From: an uncultured Candidatus Sumerlaeota bacterium
GTDB lineage: Bacteria; Sumerlaeota; Sumerlaeia; MWCT01; JAUWMI01
Assembly (NCBI GenBank): GCA_964454265.1
Contig: CAYVXD010000001.1
Location: 13,136 to 77,135 of the forward strand
Reading direction: 5' to 3'
Length of the DNA: 64,000 nucleotides
Part shown: piece by piece, positions 32,009 through 55,333 of the stretch
Layout of the letters: every line of letters begins with the position of its first letter
How positions within the stretch are numbered: position 1 is the first letter of the stretch
The notes under the pieces: generated by a model
The model's database searches: none
What the model saw: only the letters and a program-made list of their open reading frames with translations
Told to the model about the DNA's origin: nothing
Translations under genes and position numbers: made by a program

Positions 32009-33346
32009 TTGTGTGTGATTATTTACAATGCAACGGTCATCTCAGTCGGTGCAAAGCCACTGCTTATTCCGAATGGGGCTGTGTATGTTCGCGATGATCG
32101 GATTGTAGACGTAGGGAAGAGCTCTCGCATCATGAAGGCCTACAGGTCGGCGGGCTCTATTAATGCTAATGGTAAAGTGTTGATGCCAGGGTTGATTAAC
32201 AGCCATACGCATCTGTACAGCACATTTGCGCTGGGCATGCCATCAATTGGACAGCAACCTCGCAATTTCATGCAGACGCTGAGAAGAGTCTGGTGGCGTC
32301 TGGACAGGGCACTCTCTGAGGAAGCGATTCGGCTCAGCGCACTGCTTTCGCTGGCTCAGGCAATTCGTGCCGGCACCACTACGTTGATTGACCATCATTC
32401 GAGCCCCAACGCGATCCGCGGAAGCCTCGATTGCCTTAGCAACATTGTTGAACGTGTAGGCATTCGCGCATGTATGAGTTACGAGGTTTCGGATCGCGAC
32501 GGGAAACGCTGCACTCGCGAAGGAATTGAAGAAAACGTACGCTTCCTCCAGGCAATAAATCGTCGCTCATCTCTGGTGCGCGGCATGTTTGGTCTACATT
32601 CCTCGTTTACCCTGTCTGATGAGACGCTGCGCCGGTGTGTCACTGCAGCCCGAGCCGTTAATGCGGGATTTCATCTCCATTGTGCGGAATCTTTGACTGA
32701 CAATGAAGACAGCATGAAGAAATACGGAAAAGGTGTGGTAGAGCGACTGGCCAAAGTCAGCGTTCTGGGGCCTCAGACCATTCTGGCGCACTGCGTTCAT
32801 ATTTCTGATGCGCAAATCAGCCTCTTGGCCAAAACCCGCACAATGGTCGCTCACAACCCACGATCAAATATGAACAACGCGGTGGGCTGTGCTCCACTCA
32901 CGCACATGCTCAAGCGTGGCGTAACCGTGGGATTAGGAACCGACGGCATGTCGGAATCGATGTGGGACGAGCTGAAGACAGGCGTCTTGCTCCATAAACA
33001 CGTTGGCCGAGACGTGCGCGCAGGCACCAGTGGGATGATCACTGCACTGTTTCAAAACAATGCGCGCATAGCCAGCCAGATTTTTAACACAAAGATCGGC
33101 GTAATTGAAAAACGTGCAAAGGCCGATCTGATTCTGGTTGACTACTACATGCCAACGCCGCTAACCAAGGAAAACCTTGCGGCACACGTTCTCTTTGGCA
33201 TTGCAAATGCACCGGTTGATACCACAATTGTAAATGGTAAAATTCTCATGCGGAACAGGAAATTGCGCGGAATTGATGAGAGCAGGATTGCAACGCGCGG
33301 CCGAAAAATTGCCAGGCTGCTCTGGCGTCGCATGGTCTCTTCGTAG
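32009..33346 (+). CDS. SsnA-like amidohydrolase (chlorohydrolase/aminohydrolase family)
   Basis: VLMPGLINSHTHLYST is the metal-binding HxH motif, with later HLHCAES and GLGTDG motifs. Length 445 aa, like SsnA. Its stop codon is embedded in the palindrome at 33343-33370. Confidence 0.65.
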   Translation: MCVIIYNATVISVGAKPLLIPNGAVYVRDDRIVDVGKSSRIMKAYRSAGSINANGKVLMPGLINSHTHLYSTFALGMPSIGQQPRNFMQTLRRVWWRLDRALSEEAIRLSALLSLAQAIRAGTTTLIDHHSSPNAIRGSLDCLSNIVERVGIRACMSYEVSDRDGKRCTREGIEENVRFLQAINRRSSLVRGMFGLHSSFTLSDETLRRCVTAARAVNAGFHLHCAESLTDNEDSMKKYGKGVVERLAKVSVLGPQTILAHCVHISDAQISLLAKTRTMVAHNPRSNMNNAVGCAPLTHMLKRGVTVGLGTDGMSESMWDELKTGVLLHKHVGRDVRAGTSGMITALFQNNARIASQIFNTKIGVIEKRAKADLILVDYYMPTPLTKENLAAHVLFGIANAPVDTTIVNGKILMRNRKLRGIDESRIATRGRKIARLLWRRMVSS

Positions 33347-33370
33347 GGGCAATTCATGAATTGTCCCTAC
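33343..33370. repeat. REP-like 28-bp near-perfect palindrome, copy 1 (GTAGGGGCAATTCATGAATTGTCCCTAC)
   Basis: The two arms are reverse complements except for one position per arm. The sequence overlaps the TAG stop of the upstream gene. Confidence 0.8.
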
Positions 33371-33460
33371 ATTATTTATTGTATGCAAGAAAGGGAGAAG
33401 AGGCATCGGCATAAGGTTCTTGTATGTTACAAGGTTTTGCGATTTAATAATGTAATTTTT

Positions 33461-33489
33461 GTAGGGGCAGGTTTAAAACCTGCGCCTAC
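33461..33489. repeat. REP-like palindrome, copy 2 (GTAGGGGCAGGTTTAAAACCTGCGCCTAC)
   Basis: Same GTAGGGGC...GCCCCTAC-type arms with a different palindromic core. It has the same left flank, TTTTTGTAGGGG. Confidence 0.75.
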
Positions 33490-33534
33490 CGTGACAAAGA
33501 AGAGCAGAGTATTTCCCGGTAAGGAGTATTCCCC

Positions 33535-34557
33535 ATGGACATTGCCAATACAATTCTCGATACGACTGCCAATACCCCACTGGTACGGCTCAATCGCGTT
33601 AACGCAAACGTCGGGACAGAGATACTGGCTAAGATTGAATACTTCAGTCCAAGTGGAAGTGTTAAGGATCGCATCCTGCGGCACATCGTGGACGAAGCAG
33701 AAGGCACTGGGCAGCTGAAACCGGGGATGATTTTGATCGAAGCCACCACAGGTAACGCAGGGATTTCTACCGCCATGATCGCTGCAGTTAAAGGATATCA
33801 GGCAGTCATCTGTATGCCCGGCGGCATGAGTGAAGAGCGCAAGAAGATCATTCGCGCTTATGGTGCTACGATTGTTGAGACACCCGGAGGGGAGAGCGAC
33901 GTTGATCTCGTGATGAAGAAAGTCCGTGAAATTATGGCTGAAGCGCCAGGCCGCTACTGGGAAGTCGGCCAATTCACCAATCCGAATAACTGGCAGGCAC
34001 ATTATCACACCACAGGGCCGGAAATCTGGCGCCAGACCGGTGGACAGATTGATGCCTTCATAGCCGCCCAGGGAACCGGTGGTACGATAACCGGCGTAGC
34101 AAAGTATTTTCGCGAACAGAAGGCGCAGACGAAGTTCTATGCGATTGAGCCAGCCGAATGTCCTCTCCTGACTAAAAGCCAATGGGGATCGCATAAGATC
34201 GAGGGGATCGGCGATGGATTCATCCCTGAAACGCTCGATGTCAGCCTGCTGGATGGTGTGGTCACGACCACGAGCGAGGAAGCGATTAACATGGCCCGGC
34301 GGCTGGCGCGCGAAGAGGGGATTTTCTGTGGTATCTCGTCCGGGTGCAGCGTGGTTGGCGCGCTCAAGCTCGCCAGGCTTCATCCAGAGTACCGCCGTAT
34401 TGTTACGATGATCTGGGATAATGGGTTGCGCTATTTTTCAACGGAATTATGCGGTGAGCAGAAACAGCTCGATTCTCCAGAGCGGGAACACCCCATGGAC
34501 GCGCGTACGCAAGCATTGCTGAAAAAGTACCGGAGCCACTGGGAGGTGATCGAGTAG
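33535..34557 (+). CDS. Cysteine synthase-family (CysK/CysM-like) PLP-dependent enzyme
   Basis: PLVRLNRV...SGSVKDR (PLP lysine), TTGNAGIS, and a Gly-rich loop GTGGTITG. Confidence 0.75.
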   Translation: MDIANTILDTTANTPLVRLNRVNANVGTEILAKIEYFSPSGSVKDRILRHIVDEAEGTGQLKPGMILIEATTGNAGISTAMIAAVKGYQAVICMPGGMSEERKKIIRAYGATIVETPGGESDVDLVMKKVREIMAEAPGRYWEVGQFTNPNNWQAHYHTTGPEIWRQTGGQIDAFIAAQGTGGTITGVAKYFREQKAQTKFYAIEPAECPLLTKSQWGSHKIEGIGDGFIPETLDVSLLDGVVTTTSEEAINMARRLAREEGIFCGISSGCSVVGALKLARLHPEYRRIVTMIWDNGLRYFSTELCGEQKQLDSPEREHPMDARTQALLKKYRSHWEVIE

Positions 34558-35790
34558 GTGGAGACAGGTGGAATAAACCCAGCGATGATCCGCGAAAAGG
34601 CCGAGGCGTACCGCGAGGCGATGACCGGCTTTCTGCGCGAGCTCATTGCGATCCCCTCGCCAAGCGGCCAGGAAAAGCGAGTCATAGAGCGCGTGCGGCA
34701 GGAAATGCAACAGGCCGGCTTTGATGAAATTCTCATTGACGATTTCGGTACTATTGCCGGCCGCCTGGGGTCGCGTGGCCCCCACATCGTATTTGATAGC
34801 CACCTCGACACTGTCGGTGTCTCAGACCCCACCGCATGGGATTTCGATCCGTATAAGGGTAAGATCGAGCGCGATGCCGTGTGGGGAAGAGGCGCTGCTG
34901 ACAACAAAGCCGCTGCCGCAGCGCATCTTTACGCCGCCAAGATAATCAAGGAAATAGCCCGGACCCAGGAGCTGCCCTTCACACTGTTCGTCGTCGGCTC
35001 GGTGCAGGAAGAGGATTGCGATGGGCTTGCTCTGGGCCACCTGATCACTCAGACACTGAAGCGGGTGGATTGTGTGGTGCTGGGTGAATGCACTAACTGT
35101 CAGATTTATCGTGGACATCGTGGCCGTGCAGAACTACTGATCCAGACACGAGGTGTTGCATGTCATGCCAGCAATCCCGACCGTGGTGAAAACGCCATTT
35201 ACAAAATGGCTCCGCTGATTCGTGAACTAGAGCAATTGAATGCGGAACTTGGTACCGATCCCTTTCTAGGCAAAGGCAGCATTGCGGTAACCAAGATTGA
35301 GTGCGACACGGATTCTCTGAACTGTGTTCCTTCGGCTTGCCGTATCTTTGCAGATCGTCGCCTCACGCGCGACGACAGTAGGGGAGAGGTGATTGGACAA
35401 CTCAGGCGGCTACCTTCGGCTTCACAAGCGCACATTAGCATTCTGCGGCGTGCAATGACATCCTGGACCGGTAAGAATCTCGAGAAGGATCAGTACTTTC
35501 CGGCATGGGCGCTTGAGGAATCTCATGAGCTTGTTCAACAAGCTCGCAAGTCCTACGAAGGGCTTTTTGGCGAAGCTCCCCGCATTGGGAAATGGACGTT
35601 CAGTACGAATGGGGTGGCCACGATGGGCGAACTCGGCATCCCAACGATAGGATTTGGGCCCGGAGAAGAGCAGTTCAGTCACAGTACTCAGGATCATGTC
35701 CCAATTGATCATCTGACCCGAGCCGCAGCCTTTTACGCGGCATTTCCGTTCGTTTACTCGGGTGCCATTACTTACGGGTCAGAGAAATAA
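34558..35790 (+). CDS. M20-family metallohydrolase (YgeY / ArgE / DapE-like)
   Basis: M20 metal-binding motifs (HLDTV, GAADNK, EEDCDG) and a length of about 410 aa. Confidence 0.65.
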   Translation: METGGINPAMIREKAEAYREAMTGFLRELIAIPSPSGQEKRVIERVRQEMQQAGFDEILIDDFGTIAGRLGSRGPHIVFDSHLDTVGVSDPTAWDFDPYKGKIERDAVWGRGAADNKAAAAAHLYAAKIIKEIARTQELPFTLFVVGSVQEEDCDGLALGHLITQTLKRVDCVVLGECTNCQIYRGHRGRAELLIQTRGVACHASNPDRGENAIYKMAPLIRELEQLNAELGTDPFLGKGSIAVTKIECDTDSLNCVPSACRIFADRRLTRDDSRGEVIGQLRRLPSASQAHISILRRAMTSWTGKNLEKDQYFPAWALEESHELVQQARKSYEGLFGEAPRIGKWTFSTNGVATMGELGIPTIGFGPGEEQFSHSTQDHVPIDHLTRAAAFYAAFPFVYSGAITYGSEK

Positions 35791-35831
35791 AGATAATCAG
35801 GCCACAGCAAATTGTGAGATAGGGATTATAT

Positions 35832-36836
35832 ATGAACCAGGGATTAAAAGGTCGTGACTATATTACTACGCAGGAATGGACGCTCCAGGAGATGGAAGTT
35901 GCTTTAAGCCTGGCTACAGAGCTCAAGCAGATGAAGCGCCGAGGCATACCGCATCGTTATCTTGAGGGCAAGACGCTTTTCATGTTTTTTTTCGACAAGT
36001 CCACGCGAACGCGCAACTCATTCGAAGCGGGCATGACGCAACTCGGCGGCCACGCTCACTATATTGACGCAGAAACTTCCCAGATCGCGCATGGGGAGAG
36101 TCCAAAAGACACCGGCATCATTATGTCGCGTTACGGCCACGGTATTGCCATCCGTCATGATTTAGTCCCCGGTGAGGGGAATGCGTATATCCGCGAAGTC
36201 GCACGATGGGCCGACGTTCCGGTCTTGAACATGCAGTGTGATGTGGATCATCCCTGCCAGACTCTTGCTGATCTAATGACCCTACGCGAACAGCTCGGGC
36301 ACGATCTGCGTGACGTAAAAATTGCAGTTTCTTGGGCTTACGCGCCAAGCTACGCCAAGCCTCTCTCCGTGCCTCAGGGCCTAATCTTGCTACTGACTCG
36401 CTATGGCATGCATGTCACCCTGGCACATCCGCCTGAGTACAGTCTCATGCCTGAGATTGTCGAGCAGGCACGGCAGAATGCGCAGGCGAGTGGTGCGAAA
36501 TTCGAGATTGTTGACTCCATGGACGAGGCGTTTCGCAATGCAGCAGTGGTTTACCCCAAATCTTGGGGTGTGCTGGAGCTTTTCGGCCAGCCTGAGGAAT
36601 CGCTCAAATTGGCCCGGCAATATCAACACTGGATTTGTGACGAGCGGCGAATGGGTTTGACTGCTTCTATTAAGCATGCGTCAACAACTAGGTCATCGCT
36701 TTATATGCATTGTTTGCCCGCAGATCGTGGCCATGAAGTAACCGATTCAGTAATTGATGGCCCACACTCTGTGGTCTATGATCAGGCAGAAAACCGGCTC
36801 CATACGTGCAAGGCCTTAATGGCTCTGACAATGTGA
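35832..36836 (+). CDS. Aspartate/ornithine carbamoyltransferase-family protein, YgeW-like (substrate unknown)
   Basis: STRTR carbamoyl-phosphate motif, HPCQ and HCLP. The ornithine-binding DxxSMG region of true OTCs is absent. Confidence 0.55.
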   Translation: MNQGLKGRDYITTQEWTLQEMEVALSLATELKQMKRRGIPHRYLEGKTLFMFFFDKSTRTRNSFEAGMTQLGGHAHYIDAETSQIAHGESPKDTGIIMSRYGHGIAIRHDLVPGEGNAYIREVARWADVPVLNMQCDVDHPCQTLADLMTLREQLGHDLRDVKIAVSWAYAPSYAKPLSVPQGLILLLTRYGMHVTLAHPPEYSLMPEIVEQARQNAQASGAKFEIVDSMDEAFRNAAVVYPKSWGVLELFGQPEESLKLARQYQHWICDERRMGLTASIKHASTTRSSLYMHCLPADRGHEVTDSVIDGPHSVVYDQAENRLHTCKALMALTM

Positions 36837-36871
36837 ACGCCGGATAGTTCAAGGCGCGCTGGTGTTCTATA

Positions 36872-37675
36872 ATGCAGCAAGCAAAATTCTTCGAGAAGGT
36901 ACTTGATCTAATCCGGGCTGGCAAGCGTGGCGCTGTTGTAACAATTATCTCAACTGAAGGTTCAACGCCGCGCAAAGGGGGGGCCAAGATGCTTGTAAGC
37001 GAGGATCTCGAGCTGGTAGGAACCGTAGGTGGTGGGTGCGTCGAAGCAGAAATCATCGCCGCGGCCCGTACGTGTATGAGAAGCCAAAAGCTCGTGGTCA
37101 AGGAGTTCGATCTGACCCGGATTAACCGGGACGAAAATGATATGCTCTGTGGAGGGAGGCTGCGCGTGATGATTGAACCAATAACCCTCGACGATCAGCT
37201 CTTGATCTTTGGAGGCGGCCACGTGGCACTCGCTCTGTATCAGATTTGCCGGCTGCTCGATTTTCGCGTAACAGTCACGGATGACCGGCCGCAATTTGCA
37301 AATAAGAAGCGCTTTCCTGAAGCTGATCAGGTGTTCGCTGCACCCTACGACCAACAGTTTCAGTCGCTCTCCATCACGCCGAATACTTTCATCGTCATTG
37401 TCACCCGAGCCCACGCAGGCGATGAGATTTGTCTCAGACATGCGCTGAAATCACCTGCCTCGTATATTGGCCTCTTGGGAAGCCGCACCAAGTTTGCCCA
37501 GCTGAAAAAACGGCTGATAGATGCAGGTGTCCCACGTGCGCAGCTTAAGCGGATTCATTGCCCGATCGGGCTCGATATTGGAGCCGTTACGCCGGAAGAA
37601 ATTGCAGTAAGCATTGCCGCTGAGATTGTTCAGCATGGGGGGGCAATTCGTGCATCACGCGATAAAAAGAAATAG
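36872..37675 (+). CDS. XdhC/CoxI-family molybdenum-hydroxylase maturation protein
   Basis: Two-domain XdhC architecture (TIISTEGSTPRKGGAKM; LLIFGGGHVALAL Rossmann-like) and a length of about 265 aa. Confidence 0.6.
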   Translation: MQQAKFFEKVLDLIRAGKRGAVVTIISTEGSTPRKGGAKMLVSEDLELVGTVGGGCVEAEIIAAARTCMRSQKLVVKEFDLTRINRDENDMLCGGRLRVMIEPITLDDQLLIFGGGHVALALYQICRLLDFRVTVTDDRPQFANKKRFPEADQVFAAPYDQQFQSLSITPNTFIVIVTRAHAGDEICLRHALKSPASYIGLLGSRTKFAQLKKRLIDAGVPRAQLKRIHCPIGLDIGAVTPEEIAVSIAAEIVQHGGAIRASRDKKK

Positions 37676-37890
37676 GCATTGACTCTGCCAGAAAACTGCG
37701 GTAAAAAGTCTGATTGTATTGCTCTTCCGTAAGGGATTCGTAATGCCGAAAAGGCGTAATTCTCTGCATTTGAAATTGACTGCTTAGCAGCCAGGTGAAA
37801 GAGCAGTTTGCTCGGTTTGCTGCACTGAGCGCATGTGGGAATAATTCTGTTAAACGCACGTTGTTCTTATCCAGCAAAGGGGATGTTTCT

Positions 37891-38604
37891 GTGAAACTGC
37901 ACATTCATAATGTGATAGTAATCTGCGGTCTGCTGTGCGCCCTGAGCATTCCGGTTTGGGCTACTGATTCAGCAACAACCGCAACGTTGGAAAACGACCC
38001 GGAAGCTGTTGTCCTGTTGAAAAAACTGGAAGAGAAAAATGCGGATGTTGACACGATTATTGGACAATTCGACCAGGTAAAGCAATCCACCTTATTTCTC
38101 GAAGAGATTCAGTCACAGGGGAAATTTTATTTTCAGAAACCGGACAAGTTCCGTTGTGATTATTTGCCACCGAATGAGAGTGAGAACTTGATCGTAGGGA
38201 ATACGGCATGGCTCTACGTGCCGGAAATTAAGCAGGTGGAAAAGTACCAATTTTCTTCAGACGTAAATTCCGTGGAGCGATTAAACCGCATGCTGCTTGG
38301 CTTTGGGGTCTCCACGGCTGATGTGCTGGATGTATATCATGTGACTGTTCTCAAGGACGAGAGCTCGAAGGGCGTGACCGCACTCCGATTTACGCCTCTG
38401 AGGAAAGAACCTACTGTTGGATTCAACAAGGTCGTTATCTGGATTAATGAGAGGCATTTGTTGCCGGAAAAAATTGTTATTGATGAAGAGAGTGGTGACC
38501 AGACGATTATAACCATGACACAGATTCGTCTGAATAGAAAAATATCGGATAAGATCTTTCAGCCGGTCTTTCCTCCCGACGTCGAGATCGTCGAAATCTA
38601 TTAG
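37891..38604 (+). CDS. LolA-like outer-membrane lipoprotein carrier-family protein (GTG start)
   Basis: Signal peptide (ICGLLCALSIPVWA), then FxQ...GxFxFxKPxKFRxDY typical of the LolA/LolB fold. Confidence 0.5.
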   Translation: MKLHIHNVIVICGLLCALSIPVWATDSATTATLENDPEAVVLLKKLEEKNADVDTIIGQFDQVKQSTLFLEEIQSQGKFYFQKPDKFRCDYLPPNESENLIVGNTAWLYVPEIKQVEKYQFSSDVNSVERLNRMLLGFGVSTADVLDVYHVTVLKDESSKGVTALRFTPLRKEPTVGFNKVVIWINERHLLPEKIVIDEESGDQTIITMTQIRLNRKISDKIFQPVFPPDVEIVEIY

Positions 38605-38621
38605 GAGCGGATACTGCATTT

Positions 38622-39161
38622 ATGAAATCCTGGCTCTACTGCCTAAGGTGTGTTCTGGCGCTCTCGCTGGTACTGCTCGTCGCATGTACATCGGTTCCCC
38701 TGGAGAGAACGCTTCCTGAGGCCATAACGGCCATTGACGTGCCCATGTTTAAGAACTTAACCTACGAGCCAGGGATTGAGGAACTCATAACCAACTACAC
38801 GATAGAAAGTTTCCTGGCCGATGGTAGGCTGACCGTGGTTCAGAAAGGTGTGGCTGATGCGCGTGTGGAAGGAGCCGTCACCGCGTACACCGTGAGTGTT
38901 TCAAGCTTTGCTAGCGATGACTTTCCCATGATCAGCACTGCCGAGGCAACGGCAAAGGTGACAGTCTGGCAGCCTCAAAAGCCCGAGGCTCCCATCGCGG
39001 AATTCTCTGATATTCACGCATCTATTCCCTATGTTGCCGATCCTCGTTCCACCGTCTACGAGAATGTTGTCGAAGTGAAAAAACGCCTCTTCAGAACCCT
39101 GGCCTCTAATATCGTCACGATGGTGATGACAGGTCCGTATCCGTCTGAGGCGGAAAAGTGA
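38622..39161 (+). CDS. Small lipoprotein, possibly LptE-like
   Basis: Lipobox LLVAC and a size of about 180 aa. It sits adjacent to the LolA-like gene. The LptE assignment is tentative. Confidence 0.3.
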   Translation: MKSWLYCLRCVLALSLVLLVACTSVPLERTLPEAITAIDVPMFKNLTYEPGIEELITNYTIESFLADGRLTVVQKGVADARVEGAVTAYTVSVSSFASDDFPMISTAEATAKVTVWQPQKPEAPIAEFSDIHASIPYVADPRSTVYENVVEVKKRLFRTLASNIVTMVMTGPYPSEAEK

Positions 39162-39235
39162 TATAATCACCCCGGCTTGCAGGTTTGCTGCAAAGGCCAT
39201 TACGCCACAGAATTGCGCGGCACGGTAGATATCCC

Positions 39236-47447: not shown

Positions 47448-47469
47448 CTTGCAAATGTGAATTTGCAAG
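47448..47469. promoter_or_regulatory. Perfect 9-4-9 palindrome CTTGCAAAT-gtga-ATTTGCAAG (candidate ROK/NagC-type operator)
   Basis: Read directly from the sequence. It is located upstream of the ROK regulator-nagB operon. Confidence 0.35.
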
Positions 47470-47559
47470 CATTGAAATGCATCTATACCTCATGCACATA
47501 GTCACCTTTTTGTTTTTGTTTAAAGTCTGTACAGGCTGGTTAGAAAGAAAAGATTTTTC

Positions 47560-47588
47560 TTGACAAGTGGGAGCAAGTTAATTTTATA
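47560..47588 (+). promoter_or_regulatory. Sigma70-like promoter (TTGACA-N17-TTTATA) for the ROK-nagB operon
   Basis: Same architecture as the 46109 promoter. It is about 75 nt upstream of the ROK gene start. Confidence 0.4.
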
Positions 47589-47663
47589 TTTTACAAAACA
47601 TGGGTTAGTGGCGCCACATTATGGCTGGTTTCTATTAGAATTCTTTAATAGTCTGCTTTTAAA

Positions 47664-48866: not shown

Positions 48867-49645
48867 TGGAGATCATTATTAGCAAGGACTATGACGAATT
48901 GAGTAGAACGGCAGCCGGGATTATACGCGATCAGGTCACAGCAAAGCCCAGTTCCGTTCTTGGTCTTGCGACCGGCGGCACTCCGATTGGAACGTACAAG
49001 GAACTGATCCGAATGCATGAGAAGGAAGGGCTGGACTTTTCGAAAGTTACCACGTTTAACCTCGATGAGTACGTCGGATTAGAGCCTACTCATGAGCAGA
49101 GTTACCATTATTTTATGCACGAGAATCTGTTCAATCACATCAATGTGAATCCAGAGAATATTCATGTCCCCAGTGGCGTGGCACGTGATTTTGAAAGTTA
49201 CTGTCAGTCGTATGAGGAAGGAATAAAGGGCGCGGGCGGCATTGATTTGCAGCTGCTGGGAATTGGTGGCGATGGCCACATTGCATTTAATGAGCCCGGT
49301 ACATCACTCGCCTCACGAACTCACATAGACACCTTGGACGAGCAGACCATCAAGGATAACGCCCGTTTTTTCGACAAGCCAGAGGATGTACCGCGCTTTG
49401 CAATTACCATGGGTGTTGGTACGATCCTTGATGTAAAGGCCATTCTGCTGATTGCCAATGGAGAGAAAAAAGCCGATGTCGTTGCCGCTTTTATTGAAGG
49501 GCCGATCACATCCCAGGTGACCTCGAGCGCCTTGCAACTTCATCCGCGCGTGACCGTGGTGCTGGATGAGCCTGCTGCTTCCAAGCTGCAAAGGATTGAT
49601 TACTATAAGTGGGTATATGCGAACAAATCCAAACTTGCAAAATAG
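48866..49645 (+). CDS. nagB: Glucosamine-6-phosphate deaminase
   Basis: LGLATGGTPIGTYKELI and GIGGDGHIAFNEPG are NagB signatures. Confidence 0.85.
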   Translation: MEIIISKDYDELSRTAAGIIRDQVTAKPSSVLGLATGGTPIGTYKELIRMHEKEGLDFSKVTTFNLDEYVGLEPTHEQSYHYFMHENLFNHINVNPENIHVPSGVARDFESYCQSYEEGIKGAGGIDLQLLGIGGDGHIAFNEPGTSLASRTHIDTLDEQTIKDNARFFDKPEDVPRFAITMGVGTILDVKAILLIANGEKKADVVAAFIEGPITSQVTSSALQLHPRVTVVLDEPAASKLQRIDYYKWVYANKSKLAK

Positions 49646-49677
49646 CATAACATCAAGTGCAATGCAGGAATTTCCGG

Positions 49678-49710
49678 GGGCAGCACGTGGGGCATGCTCC
49701 CTTTGTTTTT
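49678..49710 (+). terminator. Possible intrinsic terminator after nagB (imperfect stem plus TTTGTTTTT)
   Basis: GGG(c)AGC...GCTCCC stem followed by a T-run. Confidence 0.3.
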
Positions 49711-49793
49711 GCGATAGCTCGCTTGGTTGATTTTTCGGACGGGTGTAGGAGTGATGAACTCCCCAGGCCAGACTTGAGAAAGAGGAGTGGGTT

Positions 49794-51713
49794 ATGAAGA
49801 GTGTAGCACAGCTTGTTGGCAACGTGCTTGAGGTCTCTGAGGTTGTAGCTGCGGTGAAGGCTGTGAAAGGAAAGCGCCACAGGAGCGTTCTATTTGGCGA
49901 CGCAGTTCGTCCATTAACAAAAGAGGAGATTGATGTCCTGAATTCGCAGGGTAACTATGCGCAGGATTGGACCCAGGTTTTAGTGAGCAAAGAGTTTAAC
50001 ATTCACCGCATCTTCAACTGCAATTTCTTTGGAACATGCGTCCTCGGGAATTATACGGCTCACGAGATTGCAGTAGCACCTGGCGTAAAACTGCCCAGTG
50101 GCCTCTACCAGAGCACAATCATAAATGCGGAAATCGGGAATAACGCGTTGGTGATGAACGTCGGCTATCTGGCCAACCATGTTGTCCATGATGAAGCTAT
50201 TGTCGTGAATGTGCAATCGCTTTGCGCAGAGGAGGGAACCAGTTTTGGTAATGGCACGGAGCTTCCAATTGCGATCGAGAGCGGTGGACGTGAAGTCCTG
50301 ACTTATGCCGACATCACCATTGCTGTTGCAGAGCGGGTCGCCACGTCGCGGAGCGACAAGGCTTTTCTTGATGCTTATGCTGACTTCGTCAAACAGTACG
50401 TTGAGGCAGTGACATGTAACAAGGGGATTGTGCAGCGCCGGGCCATAGTGCGCAATAGCGCTACTGTCTGCAATACTTTTATCGGTGCAGGCGCTGAAAT
50501 TGACAATGCCACGTGCGTCAGCAACTGTACGATCCTGAGTAATGAGGACGAGAAGACGCGAATTACGGATGGTGCCTATGTGGTCAACAGCCTATTGCAG
50601 TGGGGCTCAGACGTAACTTCCATGGCGATTGTAGATACCTCGGTGCTGACGGAGCATTCGCATGTTGCGAGGCATGGCAAAGTGACGCAGTCAATCATTG
50701 GGCCGAACAGCGGAATTGCCGAAGGCGAAGTTACCGCATCTCTGGTAGGCCCCTTTGTAGGGTTTCATCACCAGGCGCTCTTGATTGCCGCGTTCTGGCC
50801 GGAAGGCAAGGGGAACGTTGGCTATGGCGCCAACGTTGGTAGCAACCATACGTCCAAAGCGCCGGATCAGGAGATCTGGTGCGGAGAGGGGACATTCTTC
50901 GGTCTGGGAACCAACATTAAGTTTCCCTCTGATTTTACTAAAGCGCCCTACTCCATAATCGCCACGGCAGTAAACGCCTTACCGCAGCGCATAGAGTTTC
51001 CCTTTTCGCTTATCAACTCGCCAGCTGCCATGTATCCCGGTATATCGCCTGCGTTTGACGAGATCATGCCGGGATGGGTGTTGTCGGATAATATTTTTAT
51101 GATTAAGCGTAACGAAGGTAAGTACATGAAGCGCAATAAGGCCAGGCGGAGCACATTCGTGTTCGAGGTTTTTCGCCCGGACATTGTTGATCTGATGATC
51201 GAGGGACGTGCCCGGTTGCAAAATGTGAAGCAGAAGAAAGATCTATACACTAGCAGAGACATTAAAGGTCTGGGCAAGAACTACCTCCTTGAAGCAAACC
51301 GGGTGAGTGGCATTGATGCCTACACGTTTTATATTCAATATTACGCCTTACTCGGACTGAAGAAACGCGTTGCTGAGATTCTTTCGCGGGGCGACAAAGC
51401 CGGCGTTGCTCAGCTGCTCTCCACGCCCTCCGATGACGCGCGCTGGGAGCATGAGCGCAAGATCTTACAACGCGAGCTGCCTTCGAATGACGTTGCCGCG
51501 AATCTTCAGCTGCTGGTAACAATGCAAGAGAAGATTGCAAAAGATGTACAAATCTCGAAGGAGAAAGATGATAAGCGGGGTACCCGCATCATTGCGGATT
51601 ATGCCGAGGCGCATGCGCCGGCTTCAGAAGATAGCTTTGTAAAAGAAACATGGAAAGTTACCGAAGAGCTGAAGAAGGAAGTCGAACGTATGGTCGCGCA
51701 GCTTGCTGCCTGA
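49794..51713 (+). CDS. Hypothetical protein, probably a left-handed beta-helix-containing DUF4954-like family member
   Basis: Roughly 640 aa with hexapeptide-like repeats rich in N/V/G/T. This family is often adjacent to nagB in Bacteroidota-type genomes. The assignment is from memory only. Confidence 0.35.
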   Translation: MKSVAQLVGNVLEVSEVVAAVKAVKGKRHRSVLFGDAVRPLTKEEIDVLNSQGNYAQDWTQVLVSKEFNIHRIFNCNFFGTCVLGNYTAHEIAVAPGVKLPSGLYQSTIINAEIGNNALVMNVGYLANHVVHDEAIVVNVQSLCAEEGTSFGNGTELPIAIESGGREVLTYADITIAVAERVATSRSDKAFLDAYADFVKQYVEAVTCNKGIVQRRAIVRNSATVCNTFIGAGAEIDNATCVSNCTILSNEDEKTRITDGAYVVNSLLQWGSDVTSMAIVDTSVLTEHSHVARHGKVTQSIIGPNSGIAEGEVTASLVGPFVGFHHQALLIAAFWPEGKGNVGYGANVGSNHTSKAPDQEIWCGEGTFFGLGTNIKFPSDFTKAPYSIIATAVNALPQRIEFPFSLINSPAAMYPGISPAFDEIMPGWVLSDNIFMIKRNEGKYMKRNKARRSTFVFEVFRPDIVDLMIEGRARLQNVKQKKDLYTSRDIKGLGKNYLLEANRVSGIDAYTFYIQYYALLGLKKRVAEILSRGDKAGVAQLLSTPSDDARWEHERKILQRELPSNDVAANLQLLVTMQEKIAKDVQISKEKDDKRGTRIIADYAEAHAPASEDSFVKETWKVTEELKKEVERMVAQLAA

Positions 51714-51853
51714 TCTGCTATACTGCCTGATAAGAGGCAGCACCGGGATCGGTTGTGCACTAGTGCATGGCCAAGGTTGTTCTGACGGATACGTGCCCGC
51801 CAGTGGCACATAGTCGGGAAAGCATCGTCCTGCATTAAAAGGCGAAAGATTTT

Positions 51854-51881
51854 GTAGGGGCAATTCATGAATTGCCCCTAC
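51854..51881. repeat. REP-like palindrome, copy 3 (GTAGGGGCAATTCATGAATTGCCCCTAC, perfect)
   Basis: Perfect 28-bp palindrome. The core is identical to copy 1 and it has the same TTTTGTAGGGG left flank and CTACAT right flank. Confidence 0.85.
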
Positions 51882-51959
51882 ATGCCTTATTGCAAAGTTG
51901 GGGCTGTACTAGCATCACCACAGTAGTTATGGTGTATATACATTGCAGGCTCTAAGTGT

Positions 51960-52060
51960 AGCGCCGCCGTCCCGGTCCGCCTCAGGCGGATCGTGAAGGC
52001 GTCTCGCCTTCACACCCGGAGGGCAGGATGCCCTCGATACAGTTCGCCGCGGCGAACGCT
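51960..52060 (+). other. GC-rich structured noncoding block: three tandem triloop hairpins closed by a long-range stem
   Basis: CCGCC-tca-GGCGG, GAAGGCG-tct-CGCCTTC and GAGGGCA-gga-TGCCCTC, enclosed by GTAGCGCCGCCG...CGCCGCGGCGAACGCTAC pairing. Confidence 0.4.
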
Positions 52061-52173
52061 ACCCATCAAAACAACGTAGACGGACTACCAGGCTGAAACA
52101 TCAGTTTTCCTGGCGGAAGGAATGCAATTGTTGGCGCTTAGAGCCATGCAGGCAAAGGACGAAGTGAAGAGCA

Positions 52174-52632
52174 ATGGAAATTGATGTAAGAAATAAGTCA
52201 AAAGCCAACCTGATTACGACCTACCGATTGAAAAAGATCACATCTCGGGTAGTAGGGACCCTACTGCACAAGAACGGTTTGCCTGATGGCGAAGTGAGCG
52301 TGGTGTACGTAGATGATTCCGAAATTGAAGCCCTGAATGCGCGGTATCGCCGTGTTCGAAAGCCAACGGATGTCCTGGCGTTTCCCATGCGGACCGGGAA
52401 ATTTGCCTCGATTCATCCCGCGCTGCTTGGTGATATTGCGATCTCTGTTCCAAGTGCGCGTAGACAGGCAGATCAGCTGGGACATCCTCTGGAACGAGAG
52501 CTTGCAGTTTTGCTCATTCACGGCTTCTGTCACCTGCTGGGATACAAGCATGAGACCAAAGCGGATGCCAAACGTATGAAAGCGCTAGAAGCGCAACTTC
52601 TCGCCCATATGGAAGAAGAGAATCTCTTATAG
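52174..52632 (+). CDS. ybeY: rRNA maturation endoribonuclease YbeY
   Basis: HGFCHLLGYKHE is the zinc-binding H3 motif. Length about 150 aa. Confidence 0.85.
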   Translation: MEIDVRNKSKANLITTYRLKKITSRVVGTLLHKNGLPDGEVSVVYVDDSEIEALNARYRRVRKPTDVLAFPMRTGKFASIHPALLGDIAISVPSARRQADQLGHPLERELAVLLIHGFCHLLGYKHETKADAKRMKALEAQLLAHMEEENLL

Positions 52633-52744
52633 TTGTAGGGCCTTTCAAGCACGCATTGTCAATCCTCCCGTTCTGATACCAAGCGTATTGTTTCCAGACA
52701 CCGCGTAAGTGGTTTTGCGGCGCAGGATCGGTGATTGTTGTTTC

Positions 52745-53641
52745 ATGGATGAAACCTTTAAATCCGGTTATATATCACTTATTGGTAAGCCGAACGTTGG
52801 CAAGTCAACGCTACTCAATCGCCTGGTCGGCGAGAAAATGGCGATTGTGTCGGAAAAGCCGCAAACCACGCGCGACAAAATTCTCGGAATTCTTACCACA
52901 AACCACTACCAGTTGATCTTTGTGGATACGCCAGGGGTCATTGTTCCTCGTGATACGTTTAATCAGTGCCTCGTGAATCGGGCGCTGAGCGCGCTGGAGG
53001 AAGTGGATCTGGTCTATTTCCTCATCGAAGCGAACGATCCAACCCCGGCACCTGAAGGGCTTGAGGCGGCCTTTGAGAAGATTTCCTGCCCGAAGTTTCT
53101 CGTGCTCAATAAAGTGGATCGCATTGCAATCCCGTTTGACGTCGCGGACTACCAATTCCCCATTGACTGTCGTCTCTATGCGGAGATTATTCCAATTTCT
53201 GCCTTGGAGAATTATAACATTGACCTTTTGATAAACAAGACGCTTGAGTACATACCGGTTGGGCCGCTTTACTACGATGCCGACCAGCTCTGTGACCGCG
53301 ATCAGCGGTTCCTGGTTGCTGAAATTGTGCGCGAAAAGGTCTTTAATCTCACCGGTCAAGAGATTCCTTACGCAGTGGCCACAGAGGTTGACGAGTTTAA
53401 AGAGCGAGAAGCCGAGAAATATTTTATTCGCATTATGATTTATGTTGAACACGACTCGCAGAAAGGAATAATTATCGGAAAAGGCGGACGGCTCATCAAG
53501 CGGATCGGCCAGCTGGCTCGTGAAGAGATTGAACAGTTACTTGGCGTACCCGTGTACCTCGAGCTTCGTGTGAAACTGCGCAAGAACTGGCGAAAGAACG
53601 AGCATGAGCTGCGCCGTCTTGGGTATCTGACCAGGAAGTAA
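52745..53641 (+). CDS. era: GTPase Era
   Basis: GKPNVGKSTLLN (G1), DTPG (G3) and NKVD (G4) motifs plus a C-terminal KH domain. Confidence 0.9.
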   Translation: MDETFKSGYISLIGKPNVGKSTLLNRLVGEKMAIVSEKPQTTRDKILGILTTNHYQLIFVDTPGVIVPRDTFNQCLVNRALSALEEVDLVYFLIEANDPTPAPEGLEAAFEKISCPKFLVLNKVDRIAIPFDVADYQFPIDCRLYAEIIPISALENYNIDLLINKTLEYIPVGPLYYDADQLCDRDQRFLVAEIVREKVFNLTGQEIPYAVATEVDEFKEREAEKYFIRIMIYVEHDSQKGIIIGKGGRLIKRIGQLAREEIEQLLGVPVYLELRVKLRKNWRKNEHELRRLGYLTRK

Positions 53642-53748
53642 AAGAAATTGATCTTGATTGGACGCGTTCAGGGATCAAAGGCAACATAATCATATCAGGA
53701 GCGCTACCCTTTAAGATAAAGGATAAAGGATGAAGGAGTAACTTTACG

Positions 53749-55281
53749 ATGAAGATTGTGACTGCAGATGAAATGCGAAACATTGATCGCATAACCATCG
53801 AGAAACGCGGCATTCCTGGTTTGACACTCATGGAACGAGCAGGAGCTGCAGTTGCTGAGGTAGTACAGGACTATTTCGAGCCGACGCGCGTGGCCGTGGT
53901 GACAGGAAAAGGCAATAACGCCGGCGATGGCTTTGTGGTGGCCCGGCTTCTTCATGAAAAAGGCATTCCCGTTAAGGTAGTTTTGCTCGGCGATCCCGAC
54001 GAGCTCACAGGGGATGCACGCGAGACGTATCAGTTACTTCCCGACAGTGTCTCTCGCCAGCGCGTTCAGGACATTCAGACGCTCAAAGAGCAGATTCAAG
54101 ATACCGACTGCCTGGTGGATGCAATTCTGGGCACCGGCGTCAAGGGGCTAGTAACGGGTTTCCTGGCTGAGGCTATTACGGCGATAAACGAGGCGGGCAA
54201 GCGCGTCGTTTCCGTGGATATTCCCTCGGGCATGCAGGCAGATGAAACGTGGAGTGGAGGGGTCTGTATCAAAGCGGATCATACTGTGACAATGGGTCTC
54301 CCGAAGATTAGTATGGTTATCCACCCCGGGGTCGAATACGCAGGGAGAGTAACGGTTGCCTCGCTCGGTTTTCCGTCCGACCTGCTTCATGCCAAAGAGA
54401 TTCATAATAACCTGGTGACTGCTGATTTTGTAAAACGTTGCCTTCCGCCACGGCCTGCCAATAGCAATAAGAAAATCTTTGGCTATCTCCTGATCGTGGC
54501 AGGATCTGTAGGTATGACCGGGGCGGCGGTGCTGGCCGCCCGGGCGGCCGCACGCTCTGGCGCTGGCCTGATCTATGTTGCTATCCCCGAGAAGCTGAAC
54601 GCCATTCTTGAAAGTCACCTAATAGACGAGATTACCGTTCCGCTTCCGTCCAGCACCGGCTTGTTTCTGGACGCTAAGTCCCTTGACCGCATTCTGGAAT
54701 TTCAGGAGCGCGTTGACGCCATTGCACTTGGGCCAGGGGTAGGACAAGAGCCTGGGACTCAGAATCTCGTTCGCGAGCTGGTGACTCGCCTGGAAAAACC
54801 CCTGGTGATTGACGCTGATGGCTTGAATGCTCTGGCAGGACACCTGGATTTGCTCAACAAGCGCAAGCATCCCACGATTCTGACACCACATCCAGGTGAG
54901 ATGGCACGATTACAAAACACCACTGCCGCAGAGGTTCAGCGCCAGCGACTCCACACTGCCCGCTCCTTTGTCTCTCAGCGGAACGTCCACCTGATTCTCA
55001 AAGGCGCACGTAGCGTGATTGCTGATCCATCAGGTGAGCTCTACGTGAATCCTACGGGTAATTCAGGACTGGCCAAAGGCGGGAGTGGTGACGTGCTTAC
55101 TGGTCTGTTGGTCGGCTTCTTGGCTCAAGGACTCAACCCGCTTCAGTCTGCCATTTGTGCAACGTACATCCACGGATTTGCCGGCGATCTGGCTGCCAGG
55201 GCGATAGGGGAGAGGGCTATGATCCCGAGCGATATGATCAGCCACATTGCCTCAGCTTTCCGCGCCTTCCAGGGCTCGTAA
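53749..55281 (+). CDS. nnr: Bifunctional NAD(P)H-hydrate epimerase / ADP-dependent dehydratase
   Basis: YjeF-N domain (GKGNNAGDG) followed by a carbohydrate-kinase-like C-terminal domain (GPG...GSGDVLTG). Confidence 0.85.
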   Translation: MKIVTADEMRNIDRITIEKRGIPGLTLMERAGAAVAEVVQDYFEPTRVAVVTGKGNNAGDGFVVARLLHEKGIPVKVVLLGDPDELTGDARETYQLLPDSVSRQRVQDIQTLKEQIQDTDCLVDAILGTGVKGLVTGFLAEAITAINEAGKRVVSVDIPSGMQADETWSGGVCIKADHTVTMGLPKISMVIHPGVEYAGRVTVASLGFPSDLLHAKEIHNNLVTADFVKRCLPPRPANSNKKIFGYLLIVAGSVGMTGAAVLAARAAARSGAGLIYVAIPEKLNAILESHLIDEITVPLPSSTGLFLDAKSLDRILEFQERVDAIALGPGVGQEPGTQNLVRELVTRLEKPLVIDADGLNALAGHLDLLNKRKHPTILTPHPGEMARLQNTTAAEVQRQRLHTARSFVSQRNVHLILKGARSVIADPSGELYVNPTGNSGLAKGGSGDVLTGLLVGFLAQGLNPLQSAICATYIHGFAGDLAARAIGERAMIPSDMISHIASAFRAFQGS

Positions 55282-55305
55282 CCACGCTTTATAGAGAGGA
55301 TGCTT

Positions 55306-55333
55306 GTGGGGGCGGTTCGCGAACCGCCCCTAC
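55306..55333. repeat. REP-like palindrome, copy 4 (GTGGGGGCGGTTCGCGAACCGCCCCTAC)
   Basis: A 28-bp palindrome between convergent genes (nnr and the Cys-rich gene). Same arm family, different palindromic core. Confidence 0.75.

What the first reader, a model, noticed from the sequence alone, without database searches (positions are those of the whole stretch)
33343..55333. Family of about 28-bp REP-like palindromes (TTTTGTAGGGGCA-palindromic core-TGCCCCTACA) at four or more intergenic sites
Copies lie at 33343-33370, 33461-33489, 51854-51881 and 55306-55333. All share the arms GT(A/G)GGGGC...GCCCCTAC.

Copies 1 and 3 have the identical core ATTCATGAAT. Copies 2 and 4 have different cores (TTTAAA, TTCGCGAA) that are themselves palindromic. 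This preserves the hairpin through compensatory change, which argues for selection on structure (RNA hairpin or a dimeric-protein site) rather than chance.

Every copy sits just 3' of a gene end, and copy 1 contains the TAG stop of the ssnA-like gene. Copy 4 lies between convergent genes. A bidirectional terminator or mRNA-stabilising role is plausible. Possible degenerate members with a GGGCA...TGCCC core occur at 2685-2703 and 52021-52039.

Such families often mark REP/MITE elements recognised by a REP-associated tyrosine transposase, and none is seen in this window.
Basis: seen in the sequence. Interest (0 to 1): 0.6.

Follow-up and report, generated by a model that had tools for sequence, protein, structure and literature searches.

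The report
Double-foot REP palindromes of RAYT transposases

Summary
All four palindromes exist exactly where stated: GT[A/G]GGGGC + a 12-13-nt palindromic core + GCCCCTAC, each with at most one mismatch. They are far beyond chance.

The same frame (GTAGGGGC-N12-GCCCCTAC) occurs in more than 20 bacterial phyla. Of 131 hits in reference genomes, 90 have a perfectly palindromic core. 97 distinct cores show massive covariation (88% paired against 48% in shuffles, 0/500 shuffles as high).

Family members are strongly extragenic and lie mostly after genes. Their GTAG foot often supplies a TAG stop codon, as copy 1 does.

The family is tied to one clade of RAYT/TnpA-REP tyrosine transposases. The palindrome sits inside those genes, between the HUH and Tyr motifs, and identical copies flank them.

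This is already described: "double-foot" REPs of TnpA-REP subclass 2.4 (Quentin et al. 2018), which equals RAYT Group 4 (Bertels et al. 2017).

No RAYT gene lies in the window, and the rest of the genome could not be fetched. Close relatives differ at two of the sites, which shows turnover.

A terminator role is not supported in general, because 3 of 4 copies lack a U-tract. An mRNA 3'-hairpin role is plausible but untested. The two "degenerate members" are not members.

Verdict: new member of a known kind, low interest.

The parts
33343..33370 (.). REP copy 1 (core AATTCATGAATT; right arm GTCCCTAC gives a G:U pair on the + strand). Its GTAG foot supplies the TAG stop (33344-33346) of the ssnA-type gene 32009-33346.
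   Evidence: RNA hairpin -15.8 kcal/mol on +. The left foot and the stop are conserved in relatives L246, L247 and L249, where the element's centre carries a 19-20-bp insert.
33461..33489 (.). REP copy 2 (29 bp, 13-nt core AGGTTTAAAACCT, one arm mismatch). With copy 1 it forms a BIME-like pair of two different cores 90 bp apart. It lies 45 nt upstream of the PALP-enzyme gene (33535-34557).
   Evidence: -19.2 kcal/mol. It is absent from the 82-83-bp orthologous spacer of relatives L246, L247 and L249. Similar mixed-core pairs occur in L172, L192, L215, L221 and L225.
51854..51881 (.). REP copy 3, a perfect 28-bp palindrome (30 bp with the flanking T/A), core AATTCATGAATT. It lies 140 nt after the DUF4954 gene (49794-51713) and 292 nt before ybeY.
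   Evidence: -18.5 kcal/mol. The identical 28-mer is found in Nostoc, Pseudanabaena, Tychonema, Patescibacteria, Nitrospirae and Omnitrophota loci.
55306..55333 (.). REP copy 4 (GTGG foot on the left, core GGTTCGCGAACC), between the convergent yjeF/nnr-type gene (53749-55281, +) and the DUF4214 gene (55350-56699, -).
   Evidence: -22.0 kcal/mol on +. The same core is found in Nitrospinota, Dehalococcoidia, Cyanobacteriota and other loci, and inside a RAYT gene in L218. The orthologous spacer in relative L244 holds a different family member, GTAGGGGCGACCCGCTGGGTCGCCCCTAC.

Best explanation
**What they are.** The four palindromes are 'double-foot' GTAG-type repetitive extragenic palindromes (REPs). 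Each is a 28-29-bp element with a 5' GT[A/G]G foot, its mirror C[T/C]AC at the 3' end, a G/C-rich basal stem (GGGC/GCCC) and a variable inner stem.

**How they most likely spread (inferred).** By analogy with E. coli TnpA-REP, the element extrudes as a hairpin on single-stranded DNA. A RAYT / TnpA-REP HUH-Y1 enzyme of subclass 2.4 (RAYT Group 4) recognises it through the GTAG foot and the stem, then cuts and rejoins it. This seeds copies mainly in spacers downstream of genes and next to existing copies. The enzyme would be encoded elsewhere in this genome or has been lost.

**What they may do once in place (inferred).** The copies are co-transcribed with the upstream gene. They form stable 12-bp-stem RNA hairpins (-16 to -22 kcal/mol) that could protect the 3' ends of upstream mRNA segments. 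This is a side effect, not a classical intrinsic terminator.

**Shown here:** the family, its covariation, its extragenic bias, its physical link to RAYT genes in other genomes, and turnover between close relatives.

**Inferred:** RAYT-catalysed mobilisation in this organism, and any effect at the RNA level.
For: **Anatomy.** The elements match the double-foot description.

**A real family**
- The pattern GTAGGGGC-N6-16-GCCCCTAC in viral contigs peaks sharply at 28 bp: 51 of 127 hits.
- In reference genomes, 90 of 131 hits have perfectly palindromic 12-nt cores and 32 more have one mismatched pair. The chance rate for a perfect core is 1/4096.
- The hits span more than 20 phyla.

**Covariation**
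- Across 97 distinct cores, the four inner-stem pairs are Watson-Crick in 88-96%, using all four pair types.
- The formal count gives 88.3% paired against 48.2% in shuffles (0/500 as high), a covariation score of 1.018 against 0.249, and 30-44% for slid controls.

**Location.** For 223 members against random positions in the same loci:
- Inside a crude ORF: 30% against 83%.
- Between tandem genes: 36% against 8.5%.
- Between convergent genes: 19% against 2.4%.
- Between divergent genes: 7% against 3.2%.
- Many overlap a stop codon by the TAG of the foot.

**RAYT link**
- E. coli RayT and a clade HMM find four RAYT ORFs in the pattern-selected loci. Each has the palindrome inside the ORF, between NHxH and WQRNYYEH.
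- NCBIfam's best hit for two of them is REP_Tyr_transpos, E = 1.6e-19.
- Among 120 homologues, 74 encode xRG-xxxx-APT. A few instead encode VGA-xxxx-PL, the other reading frame of the same palindrome, so it is the DNA that is conserved.
- Internal and extragenic copies are identical in L143 (3 of 3), L252 (7 identical, flanking the gene on both sides) and L253 (2 of 2).

**Literature**
- Quentin et al. 2018 (PMC6006769) describe exactly this for subclass 2.4: double-foot REPs, REPs inserted in tnpA-REP between HuH and Y, and motifs NH[IFV]H / WQ / YIxNNP, which match.
- Di Nocera et al. 2013 (PMC3733652) describe the after-gene bias and the TAG stops donated by GTAG feet.

**Turnover**
- Copy 2 is absent from relatives whose SsnA is 88-93% identical.
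- The copy-4 spacer holds a different member in a relative with ~93% DNA identity.
Against: - No RAYT gene lies in the 64-kb window. The rest of the genome could not be retrieved. So a cognate enzyme and a high genomic copy number are unverified for this organism.
- Three different cores occur among four copies. Strict cognate pairing would then need several RAYTs, relaxed specificity, or old inactive copies.
- The 17-21-kb orthologous regions of close relatives carry only one degenerate copy, so the density may be modest.
- Dyad symmetry extends through the 4-nt 'loop' (68-70% complementary against 25% by chance). Hairpin selection alone does not explain this.
- No experiment on any subclass 2.4 enzyme was found in the papers read. 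The mechanism is extrapolated from E. coli TnpA-REP.
Confidence: 0.8

Rival explanations
1. They are locally evolved RNA elements: intrinsic (possibly bidirectional) terminators or mRNA-stabilising 3' hairpins selected in place, not mobile DNA.
For: - All four lie after gene ends, and their hairpins are stable, -16 to -22 kcal/mol.
- Copy 1 passes a lax terminator scan with the tail ATTATTTATT.
- The single mismatches of copies 1 and 4 are G:U-compatible on the mRNA-sense strand.
- In tandem contexts elsewhere, stem transitions are G:T on the sense strand in 7 cases against 2. This is not significant.
Against: - Three of four copies have no U-tract on either strand.
- Identical 28-mers occur at unrelated loci and in distant phyla.
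- The conserved GTAG/CTAC feet have no role in termination.
- The same sequence sits inside and around RAYT genes.
- Copies come and go between close relatives.
- An RNA effect can still exist as a secondary consequence.
Confidence: 0.1
2. They are double-stranded binding sites for a dimeric protein (a regulator, a nucleoid protein, or a restriction-modification-related factor) that reads a two-fold symmetric site.
For: - Symmetry runs through the central 4 nt, with pairs 5-8 and 6-7 complementary in 68-70% of distinct cores against 25% by chance.
- The centres resemble short restriction-type palindromes such as CATG, CGCG, GGCC and TGCA.
- Some RAYT genes of this clade sit within type I R-M operons.
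Against: - The inner 12 nt are hypervariable (97 cores) and only the outer 8 nt are fixed, which is unlike an operator.
- Sites avoid promoters and divergent spacers and prefer 3' ends.
- The central positions are the least symmetric and decay first. This fits a loop that was symmetric at birth, not one under selection.
Confidence: 0.05
3. Chance palindromes, or an assembly or compositional artefact.
For: The 8-mer GTAGGGGC with one mismatch is only modestly enriched in the window: 47 hits against 32.6 expected.
Against: - Four near-perfect 28-29-mers share their arms.
- The same frame appears in hundreds of independent assemblies, with 90 of 131 cores perfectly palindromic.
- Copy 1's foot is conserved in three independent assemblies of relatives.
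Confidence: 0.01

Closest known systems
'Double-foot' REP sequences associated with TnpA-REP subclass 2.4 (Quentin et al. 2018, BMC Genomics 19:475, PMC6006769), equal to RAYT Group 4 (Bertels, Gallie & Rainey 2017, PMC5581495)
   Same: - 5' GT[AG]G plus 3' C[TC]AC feet, three G-C pairs at the stem base, and about 28 bp in length.
- The REP is inserted in frame inside the transposase gene, between HuH and Y, in a hypervariable linker.
- Enzyme motifs NH[IFV]H / WQ / YIxNNP, about 190 aa.
- Scattered distribution over Cyanobacteria, Bacteroidetes and many other phyla.
   Different: - Nothing essential differs.
- Here the host is an uncultured lineage whose best named relatives are Candidatus Sumerlaeota MAGs, at 57-62% LigA identity.
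- The cognate RAYT was not seen.
- Three cores coexist within 22 kb.
- The sample here extends the range to more than 20 phyla and shows identical 28-mers shared across phyla.
Classical GTAG REPs / BIMEs of E. coli and Pseudomonas with RAYT Groups 2-3 (Nunvar 2010, PMC2817692; Bertels & Rainey 2011 REPINs, PMC3116915; Di Nocera 2013, PMC3733652; Messing 2012, PMC3479197)
   Same: - A GTAG/GTGG foot, a GC-rich imperfect or perfect hairpin, and 20-40 bp in length.
- Extragenic location, mostly between unidirectional and convergent genes.
- The foot can donate a TAG stop.
- Pairs of different REP types lie close together, as in BIMEs.
   Different: - Classical REPs have a single unpaired 5' foot and are asymmetric. 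They often carry bulges and work as inverted doublets (REPINs).
- Here the foot is mirrored and paired, so each element is a complete dyad and orientation is undefined.
- The associated enzyme belongs to a different RAYT clade: E. coli RayT matches it only at E = 4e-6 to 3e-3.
IS200/IS605 subterminal hairpins recognised by TnpA (Y1 HUH transposases)
   Same: An HUH-Y1 enzyme acts on hairpins in single-stranded DNA. Pfam Y1_Tnp matches the enzyme weakly.
   Different: No transposase-carrying element is bounded by two different hairpins, and there is no tnpB. The palindromes are free-standing 28-mers.
Rho-independent terminators
   Same: A GC-rich hairpin just after stop codons.
   Different: There is no U-tract in 3 of 4 copies. 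The feet are conserved, and the sequences are identical at unrelated loci and across phyla.

Membership tests
GTAG-type REP, double-foot class (TnpA-REP subclass 2.4 / RAYT Group 4 system) | 5' GT[AG]G tetranucleotide at the foot of the hairpin | tested here: met
   GTAG in copies 1-3 and GTGG in copy 4.
GTAG-type REP, double-foot class (TnpA-REP subclass 2.4 / RAYT Group 4 system) | Reverse-complement foot C[TC]AC at the 3' end ('double foot') | tested here: met
   CTAC ends all four copies. Definition from PMC6006769.
GTAG-type REP, double-foot class (TnpA-REP subclass 2.4 / RAYT Group 4 system) | Short (20-40 bp) hairpin with a G/C-rich basal stem, kept by compensatory change | tested here: met
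   - 28-29 bp, with a GGGC/GCCC base and a 12-bp stem.
- Covariation over 97 cores: 88.3% paired against 48.2% in shuffles, 0/500 as high.
GTAG-type REP, double-foot class (TnpA-REP subclass 2.4 / RAYT Group 4 system) | Extragenic, preferentially after unidirectional or convergent genes | tested here: met
   - 4 of 4 in the window.
- Among 223 family members, tandem spacers are enriched about 4-fold, convergent about 8-fold and divergent about 2-fold. 30% lie inside a crude ORF against 83% of random positions.
GTAG-type REP, double-foot class (TnpA-REP subclass 2.4 / RAYT Group 4 system) | Many dispersed copies in the same genome | not testable with these tools
   Only 64 kb is available, giving 4 copies or about 1 per 16 kb. 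The source contig and genome could not be fetched. Relatives' 17-21-kb regions hold only one degenerate copy.
GTAG-type REP, double-foot class (TnpA-REP subclass 2.4 / RAYT Group 4 system) | A cognate RAYT gene in the same genome, flanked by the REP and/or containing it | not testable with these tools
   - No RAYT is in the window.
- For the family as a whole the feature is met. The palindrome lies inside RAYT ORFs in L143, L156, L208 and L218 and in 74 of 120 homologues. Identical flanking copies occur in L143, L252 and L253.
- The core of window copy 4 is the internal core of the L218 RAYT.
GTAG-type REP, double-foot class (TnpA-REP subclass 2.4 / RAYT Group 4 system) | Associated enzyme has the subclass 2.4 signature (NH[IFV]H, WQ, YIxNNP, about 194 aa, variable insert between beta3 and alphaC) | tested here: met
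   - 114 of 120 homologues have NH[IMLFV]H, 116 have WQ[RK].., and 112 have Y[IV]xxNP.
- The median length is 191 aa, with a hypervariable linker.
- The NCBIfam REP_Tyr_transpos hit (E = 1.6e-19) is below the equivalog cutoff of 80 bits.
GTAG-type REP, double-foot class (TnpA-REP subclass 2.4 / RAYT Group 4 system) | Mobility or turnover: presence/absence differences between close relatives | tested here: met
   - Copy 2 and its 90-bp spacer are absent from L246, L247 and L249.
- The copy-1 element is centrally disrupted in those relatives.
- A different family member occupies the copy-4 spacer in L244.
- The direction of change (gain or loss) is not resolved.
Rho-independent terminator | GC-rich hairpin followed directly by a U-tract on the transcribed strand | tested here: not met
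   Only copy 1 has a T-rich tail. Copies 2-4 have none on either strand.
REPIN (inverted REP doublet) | Two copies of the same REP in inverted orientation, separated by a short spacer and forming a long hairpin | tested here: not met
   Copies 1 and 2 are 90 bp apart but have different cores. Each element is itself a full dyad.

The most novel reading that the evidence does not exclude
The REP copy embedded in the subclass 2.4 RAYT gene may not be a tolerated insertion. It may be the master copy from which genomic copies are made.
- New copies would be born as perfect dyads by a fold-back or template-switch step on single-stranded DNA. This would explain why even the 4-nt loop is palindromic in about 70% of cores, why internal and extragenic copies are identical within a genome, and why the linker shows half-palindrome tandem duplications.
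- The whole enzyme-plus-internal-REP module would spread horizontally. This would explain identical 28-mers in unrelated phyla.
- The window's copies would then be products of RAYT genes encoding VGAIHELPL-type or RGGSRTAPT-type linkers elsewhere in the genome.
Probability: 0.12. Interest if true: 0.6.

Novelty: new member of a known kind. Interest (0 to 1): 0.25.

Why it matters
For this window the finding mainly improves annotation. Four intergenic hairpins, one of which supplies a stop codon, are REP elements rather than terminators or operators. They mark spacers that turn over quickly between close relatives.

More broadly, the sample gathered here shows that the double-foot REP frame is shared across more than 20 phyla, including identical 28-mers. 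It also shows that the dyad symmetry runs through the loop, and that the cognate RAYT nearly always carries the element in its own coding sequence. These points sharpen an existing description (Quentin et al. 2018) but do not open a new category. No enzyme of this RAYT clade appears to have been tested biochemically in the papers read.

Tried and rejected
- **Raw-motif literature search.** A search for 'GTAGGGGC' returned only unrelated primer hits.
- **Rfam.** The whole window at gathering threshold gave only tRNA-Gly. An E-value scan of 51850-52200 gave nothing credible.
- **RAYT in the window.** E. coli RayT by phmmer against the window and the viral loci found nothing. The clade HMM also found no RAYT in the window.
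- **Source contig.** Exact-protein look-ups failed for DUF4954, LigA and a 174-aa ORF. The cluster look-up gave no names. So genome-wide copy number and the resident RAYT stay unknown.
- **Metagenome scan.** The scan with Era returned only two loci, one of them useful.
- **RNA-level selection test.** G:U against A:C mismatches on the sense strand came out 7 against 2, which is not significant.
- **Terminator reading.** Rejected as a general property.
Rejected: they have no feet and only short stems.
- **REPIN doublet reading for copies 1 and 2.** Rejected because their cores differ.
- **Collection scans.** The genome and viral scans stopped at a limit of 120 rows. Abundance and taxonomic proportions therefore cannot be estimated from them.

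Full report
**1. Observation**

Reading the window confirms all four elements at the stated coordinates:
- 33343-33370: GTAGGGGCAATTCATGAATTGTCCCTAC
- 33461-33489: GTAGGGGCAGGTTTAAAACCTGCGCCTAC
- 51854-51881: GTAGGGGCAATTCATGAATTGCCCCTAC
- 55306-55333: GTGGGGGCGGTTCGCGAACCGCCCCTAC

An independent inverted-repeat search ranks them among the best short palindromes of the window. A relaxed scan for the same architecture finds no further member. Each copy has at most one mismatch in 14 arm positions.

Gene context, from ORFs and Pfam:
- Copy 1 overlaps the TAG stop of an SsnA-type amidohydrolase gene.
- Copy 2 lies in the same spacer, 45 nt before a PLP-enzyme gene.
- Copy 3 lies 140 nt after a DUF4954 gene.
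- Copy 4 lies between convergent yjeF/nnr-type and DUF4214 genes.

The two 'possible degenerate members' (2685-2703 and 52021-52039) are ordinary short GC hairpins without GTAG/CTAC feet. They do not belong to the family.

**2. The family outside the window**

The pattern GTAGGGGC-N6-16-GCCCCTAC in IMG/VR contigs gave 127 sites. There is a sharp peak at 28 bp (51 sites), and the cores are mostly perfectly palindromic.

Of its 131 sites, 90 have a perfectly palindromic 12-nt core and 32 have one mismatched pair. The chance rate for a perfect core is 1 in 4096.

The hosts span Cyanobacteriota, Chloroflexota, Bacteroidota, Gemmatimonadota, Binatia, Desulfobacterota, Nitrospinota, Nitrospirota, Omnitrophota, Acidobacteriota, Planctomycetota, Patescibacteria, Firmicutes, Proteobacteria, Myxococcota, Latescibacterota, Atribacterota, Calditrichota and others.

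The exact 28-mer of copy 3 recurs in Nostoc, Pseudanabaena, Tychonema, a Patescibacteria MAG, a Nitrospirae MAG and Omnitrophota MAGs. The core of copy 4 recurs in Nitrospinota, Dehalococcoidia, Cyanobacteriota and Deltaproteobacteria MAGs.

**3. Structure**

The hits were selected only on the outer 8+8 nt, so the inner 12 nt give an unbiased test.
- Over 97 distinct cores, the four inner-stem pairs are Watson-Crick in 88-96%, with all four pair types.
- The formal count gives 88.3% paired cells against 48.2% in shuffles (0/500 as high). The covariation score is 1.018 against 0.249. Slid-partner controls give 30-44%.

One thing goes beyond a hairpin model. The central four nucleotides, which would form the loop, are also complementary in 68-70% of distinct cores, against 25% by chance. 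This suggests that copies are born as perfect dyads and decay first in the loop.

As RNA, the window copies fold to -15.8 to -22.0 kcal/mol on the + strand.

**4. Position**

With a crude ORF-based gene call on all loci, 223 family members were compared with random positions in the same loci:

| Location | Family members | Random positions |
|---|---|---|
| Inside an ORF | 30% | 83% |
| Between tandem genes | 36% | 8.5% |
| Between convergent genes | 19% | 2.4% |
| Between divergent genes | 7% | 3.2% |

In tandem spacers the elements lie closer to the upstream stop (median 32 nt) than to the next start (median 70 nt). Eleven overlap the stop codon through the TAG of their foot, as copy 1 does.

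Close pairs of two different cores, like copies 1 and 2, recur in L172, L192, L215, L221 and L225. This resembles BIME clusters.

**5. Link to a transposase**

Searching the pattern-selected loci with E. coli RayT (taken from NC_000913) found four RAYT-like ORFs. A clade HMM found the same four and none in the window.

In every one of them the palindrome lies inside the ORF, between the HUH strand (MPNHxHG) and the Tyr helix (WQRNYYEHIIR), and is read as xRG-xxxx-APT. NCBIfam's best match for two of them is REP-associated tyrosine transposase, at E = 1.6e-19 and below the equivalog cutoff. Pfam Y1_Tnp matches weakly.

Among the best 120:
- 74 encode RG-xxxx-APT exactly.
- Several instead encode VGA-xxxx-PL, which is the same palindrome in the other reading frame. 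The DNA element is therefore what is conserved, not a peptide.
- Many have partial tandem duplications of half-palindromes.

Within a genome, the internal and extragenic copies are identical:
- L143: three copies.
- L252: a RAYT flanked on both sides, with seven identical 28-mers in 8 kb.
- L253: two copies.

The L218 RAYT carries the core of window copy 4.

**6. What is already known**

Quentin et al. 2018 (PMC6006769) define TnpA-REP subclass 2.4 by:
- motifs NH[IFV]H, WQ and YIxNNP;
- a length of about 194 aa;
- a hypervariable insert between beta3 and alphaC;
- 'double foot' REPs (5' GT[AG]G and 3' C[TC]AC);
- distribution in Cyanobacteria, Bacteroidetes and various phyla.

They equate this subclass with RAYT Group 4 of Bertels et al. 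2017 (PMC5581495). The enzymes found here fit: NH[IMLFV]H in 114 of 120, WQ in 116, Y[IV]xxNP in 112, and a median length of 191 aa.

Di Nocera et al. 2013 (PMC3733652) had already reported GTAG REPs in Cyanobacteria, Chloroflexi and PVC bacteria, their location after unidirectional and convergent genes, and TAG stops donated by the foot.

The classical single-foot REPs of Nunvar et al. 2010 are related but differ in anatomy.

**7. Turnover between relatives**

*The ssnA spacer.* SsnA orthologues at 88-93% identity lie in fully syntenic contigs. Their ssnA-ygeX spacer is 82-83 bp, against 188 bp in the window. The left foot and the TAG stop are conserved. The relatives' element carries a 19-20-bp insert in its centre, and copy 2 with its 90-bp spacer is missing.

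*The copy-4 spacer.* A metagenome contig with ~93% DNA identity (L244) has a 326-bp spacer where the window has 76 bp. It holds a different family member, GTAGGGGCGACCCGCTGGGTCGCCCCTAC.

These spacers are therefore repeatedly re-occupied or rearranged, as expected for REPs. The direction of each change is not resolved.

**8. Mechanism and limits**

The best-supported reading is that these are REP copies made or maintained by a subclass 2.4 RAYT acting on single-stranded hairpins. This is extrapolated from work on E. coli TnpA-REP (PMC3479197 and PMC8266576, as listed).

A possible secondary effect is the stabilisation of upstream mRNA segments within operons. This draws on established knowledge of E. 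coli intercistronic REPs and was not tested here.

Classical termination is not supported. Only copy 1 has a T-rich tail.

The test for strand asymmetry of G:U mismatches was inconclusive, at 7 against 2.

No RAYT gene is in the window. The source genome could not be fetched, so copy number and the resident enzyme remain open.

The best named relatives of the host are Candidatus Sumerlaeota MAGs, at 57-62% LigA identity.

**9. Verdict**
- The REP/RAYT interpretation is supported.
- The family is already described.
- Novelty: new member of a known kind.
- Interest: low, about 0.25.
- Residual novelty lies in the loop-level dyad symmetry, the sharing of identical 28-mers across phyla, and the possibility that the gene-internal copy is a master copy. 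These are speculative.

Noticed in passing
window 52638-52727: An 89-90-bp segment between the ybeY stop and the era start is absent from metagenome contig L001, which is otherwise 100% identical over 680 + 332 bp. The junction is TTGTA|GGGCC...CAGGA|TCGG and begins at a GTAG-like foot (GTAGGGCC). The segment is unique in the window and in all loci. It is a strain-level indel of unknown origin.
   Followed up: partly
window ~51940-52110 (upstream of ybeY, 52174): A run of four GC-rich hairpins (ccgcctcaggcgg, gaaggcgtctcgccttc, gggcaggatgccc, gttcgccgcggcgaac) is 100% conserved in L001. There is no Rfam match at gathering threshold, and only a chance-level hit in an E-value scan. It could be an undescribed leader or small RNA.
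   Followed up: partly
L250 10001-10570; L253 10001-10597; L251 10001-10591: RAYT genes of this clade sit inside defence loci. In Meiothermus ruber (L250) and in L253 the gene lies between hsdS and hsdR of a type I R-M operon, with overlapping start and stop codons. In an Atribacteria genome (L251) it lies beside SNF2-helicase, DUF1156-methylase, DUF499 and toxin-antitoxin genes. L250 and L251 have the internal palindrome but no extragenic copy within 10 kb on either side.
   Followed up: no
L250 ~10270-10320; proteins P0012, P0013, P0015, P0016, P0055, P0058: The RAYT linker often holds tandem partial duplications of a half-palindrome. An example in M. ruber is TGTAGGGGCACGTTGCATGGTAGGGGCACGTTGCAACGTGCCCCTAC. 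Peptide examples are GRDTMHCKDTMRCKGTMHRAPT and RAPTTTPHRAPTTTPHRAPT. This points to slippage or processing at the hairpin inside the gene.
   Followed up: no
L246 11330-11415, L247 7025-7110, L249 11330-11416 (orthologues of window 33343-33534): In relatives, the REP at the ssnA stop is split by a 19-20-bp insert in its centre: GTAGGGGCAATTCATGA-CTTGTGCGCCCGCGGCGT-AATTGCCCTAC. The TAG stop in the foot is conserved, so this copy predates the divergence of these lineages.
   Followed up: partly
L008, L015, L032, L086 (IMG/VR contigs): Contigs classed as viral each carry five copies of the GATTCATGAATC-core palindrome within 7-14 kb. Either the classification is wrong or phage and prophage DNA is colonised by the same REPs.
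   Followed up: no
L244 540-830: The era-yjeF spacer of the ~93%-identity relative holds about 170 bp of other hairpin repeats (tcatcctgagtccgccgtggcggacgaaggatc ... atcctgagcggagtcgaagggctcagaatgac). These are absent from the window and look like a different miniature repeat family.
   Followed up: no
L252 10528-10555 and 11150-11177: A second, related palindrome type (GTAGGGGTTTGAAATTTTGAACCCCTAC) overlaps the RAYT stop region and recurs 600 bp downstream, alongside the main ACGATGCATCGT-core family.
   Followed up: no
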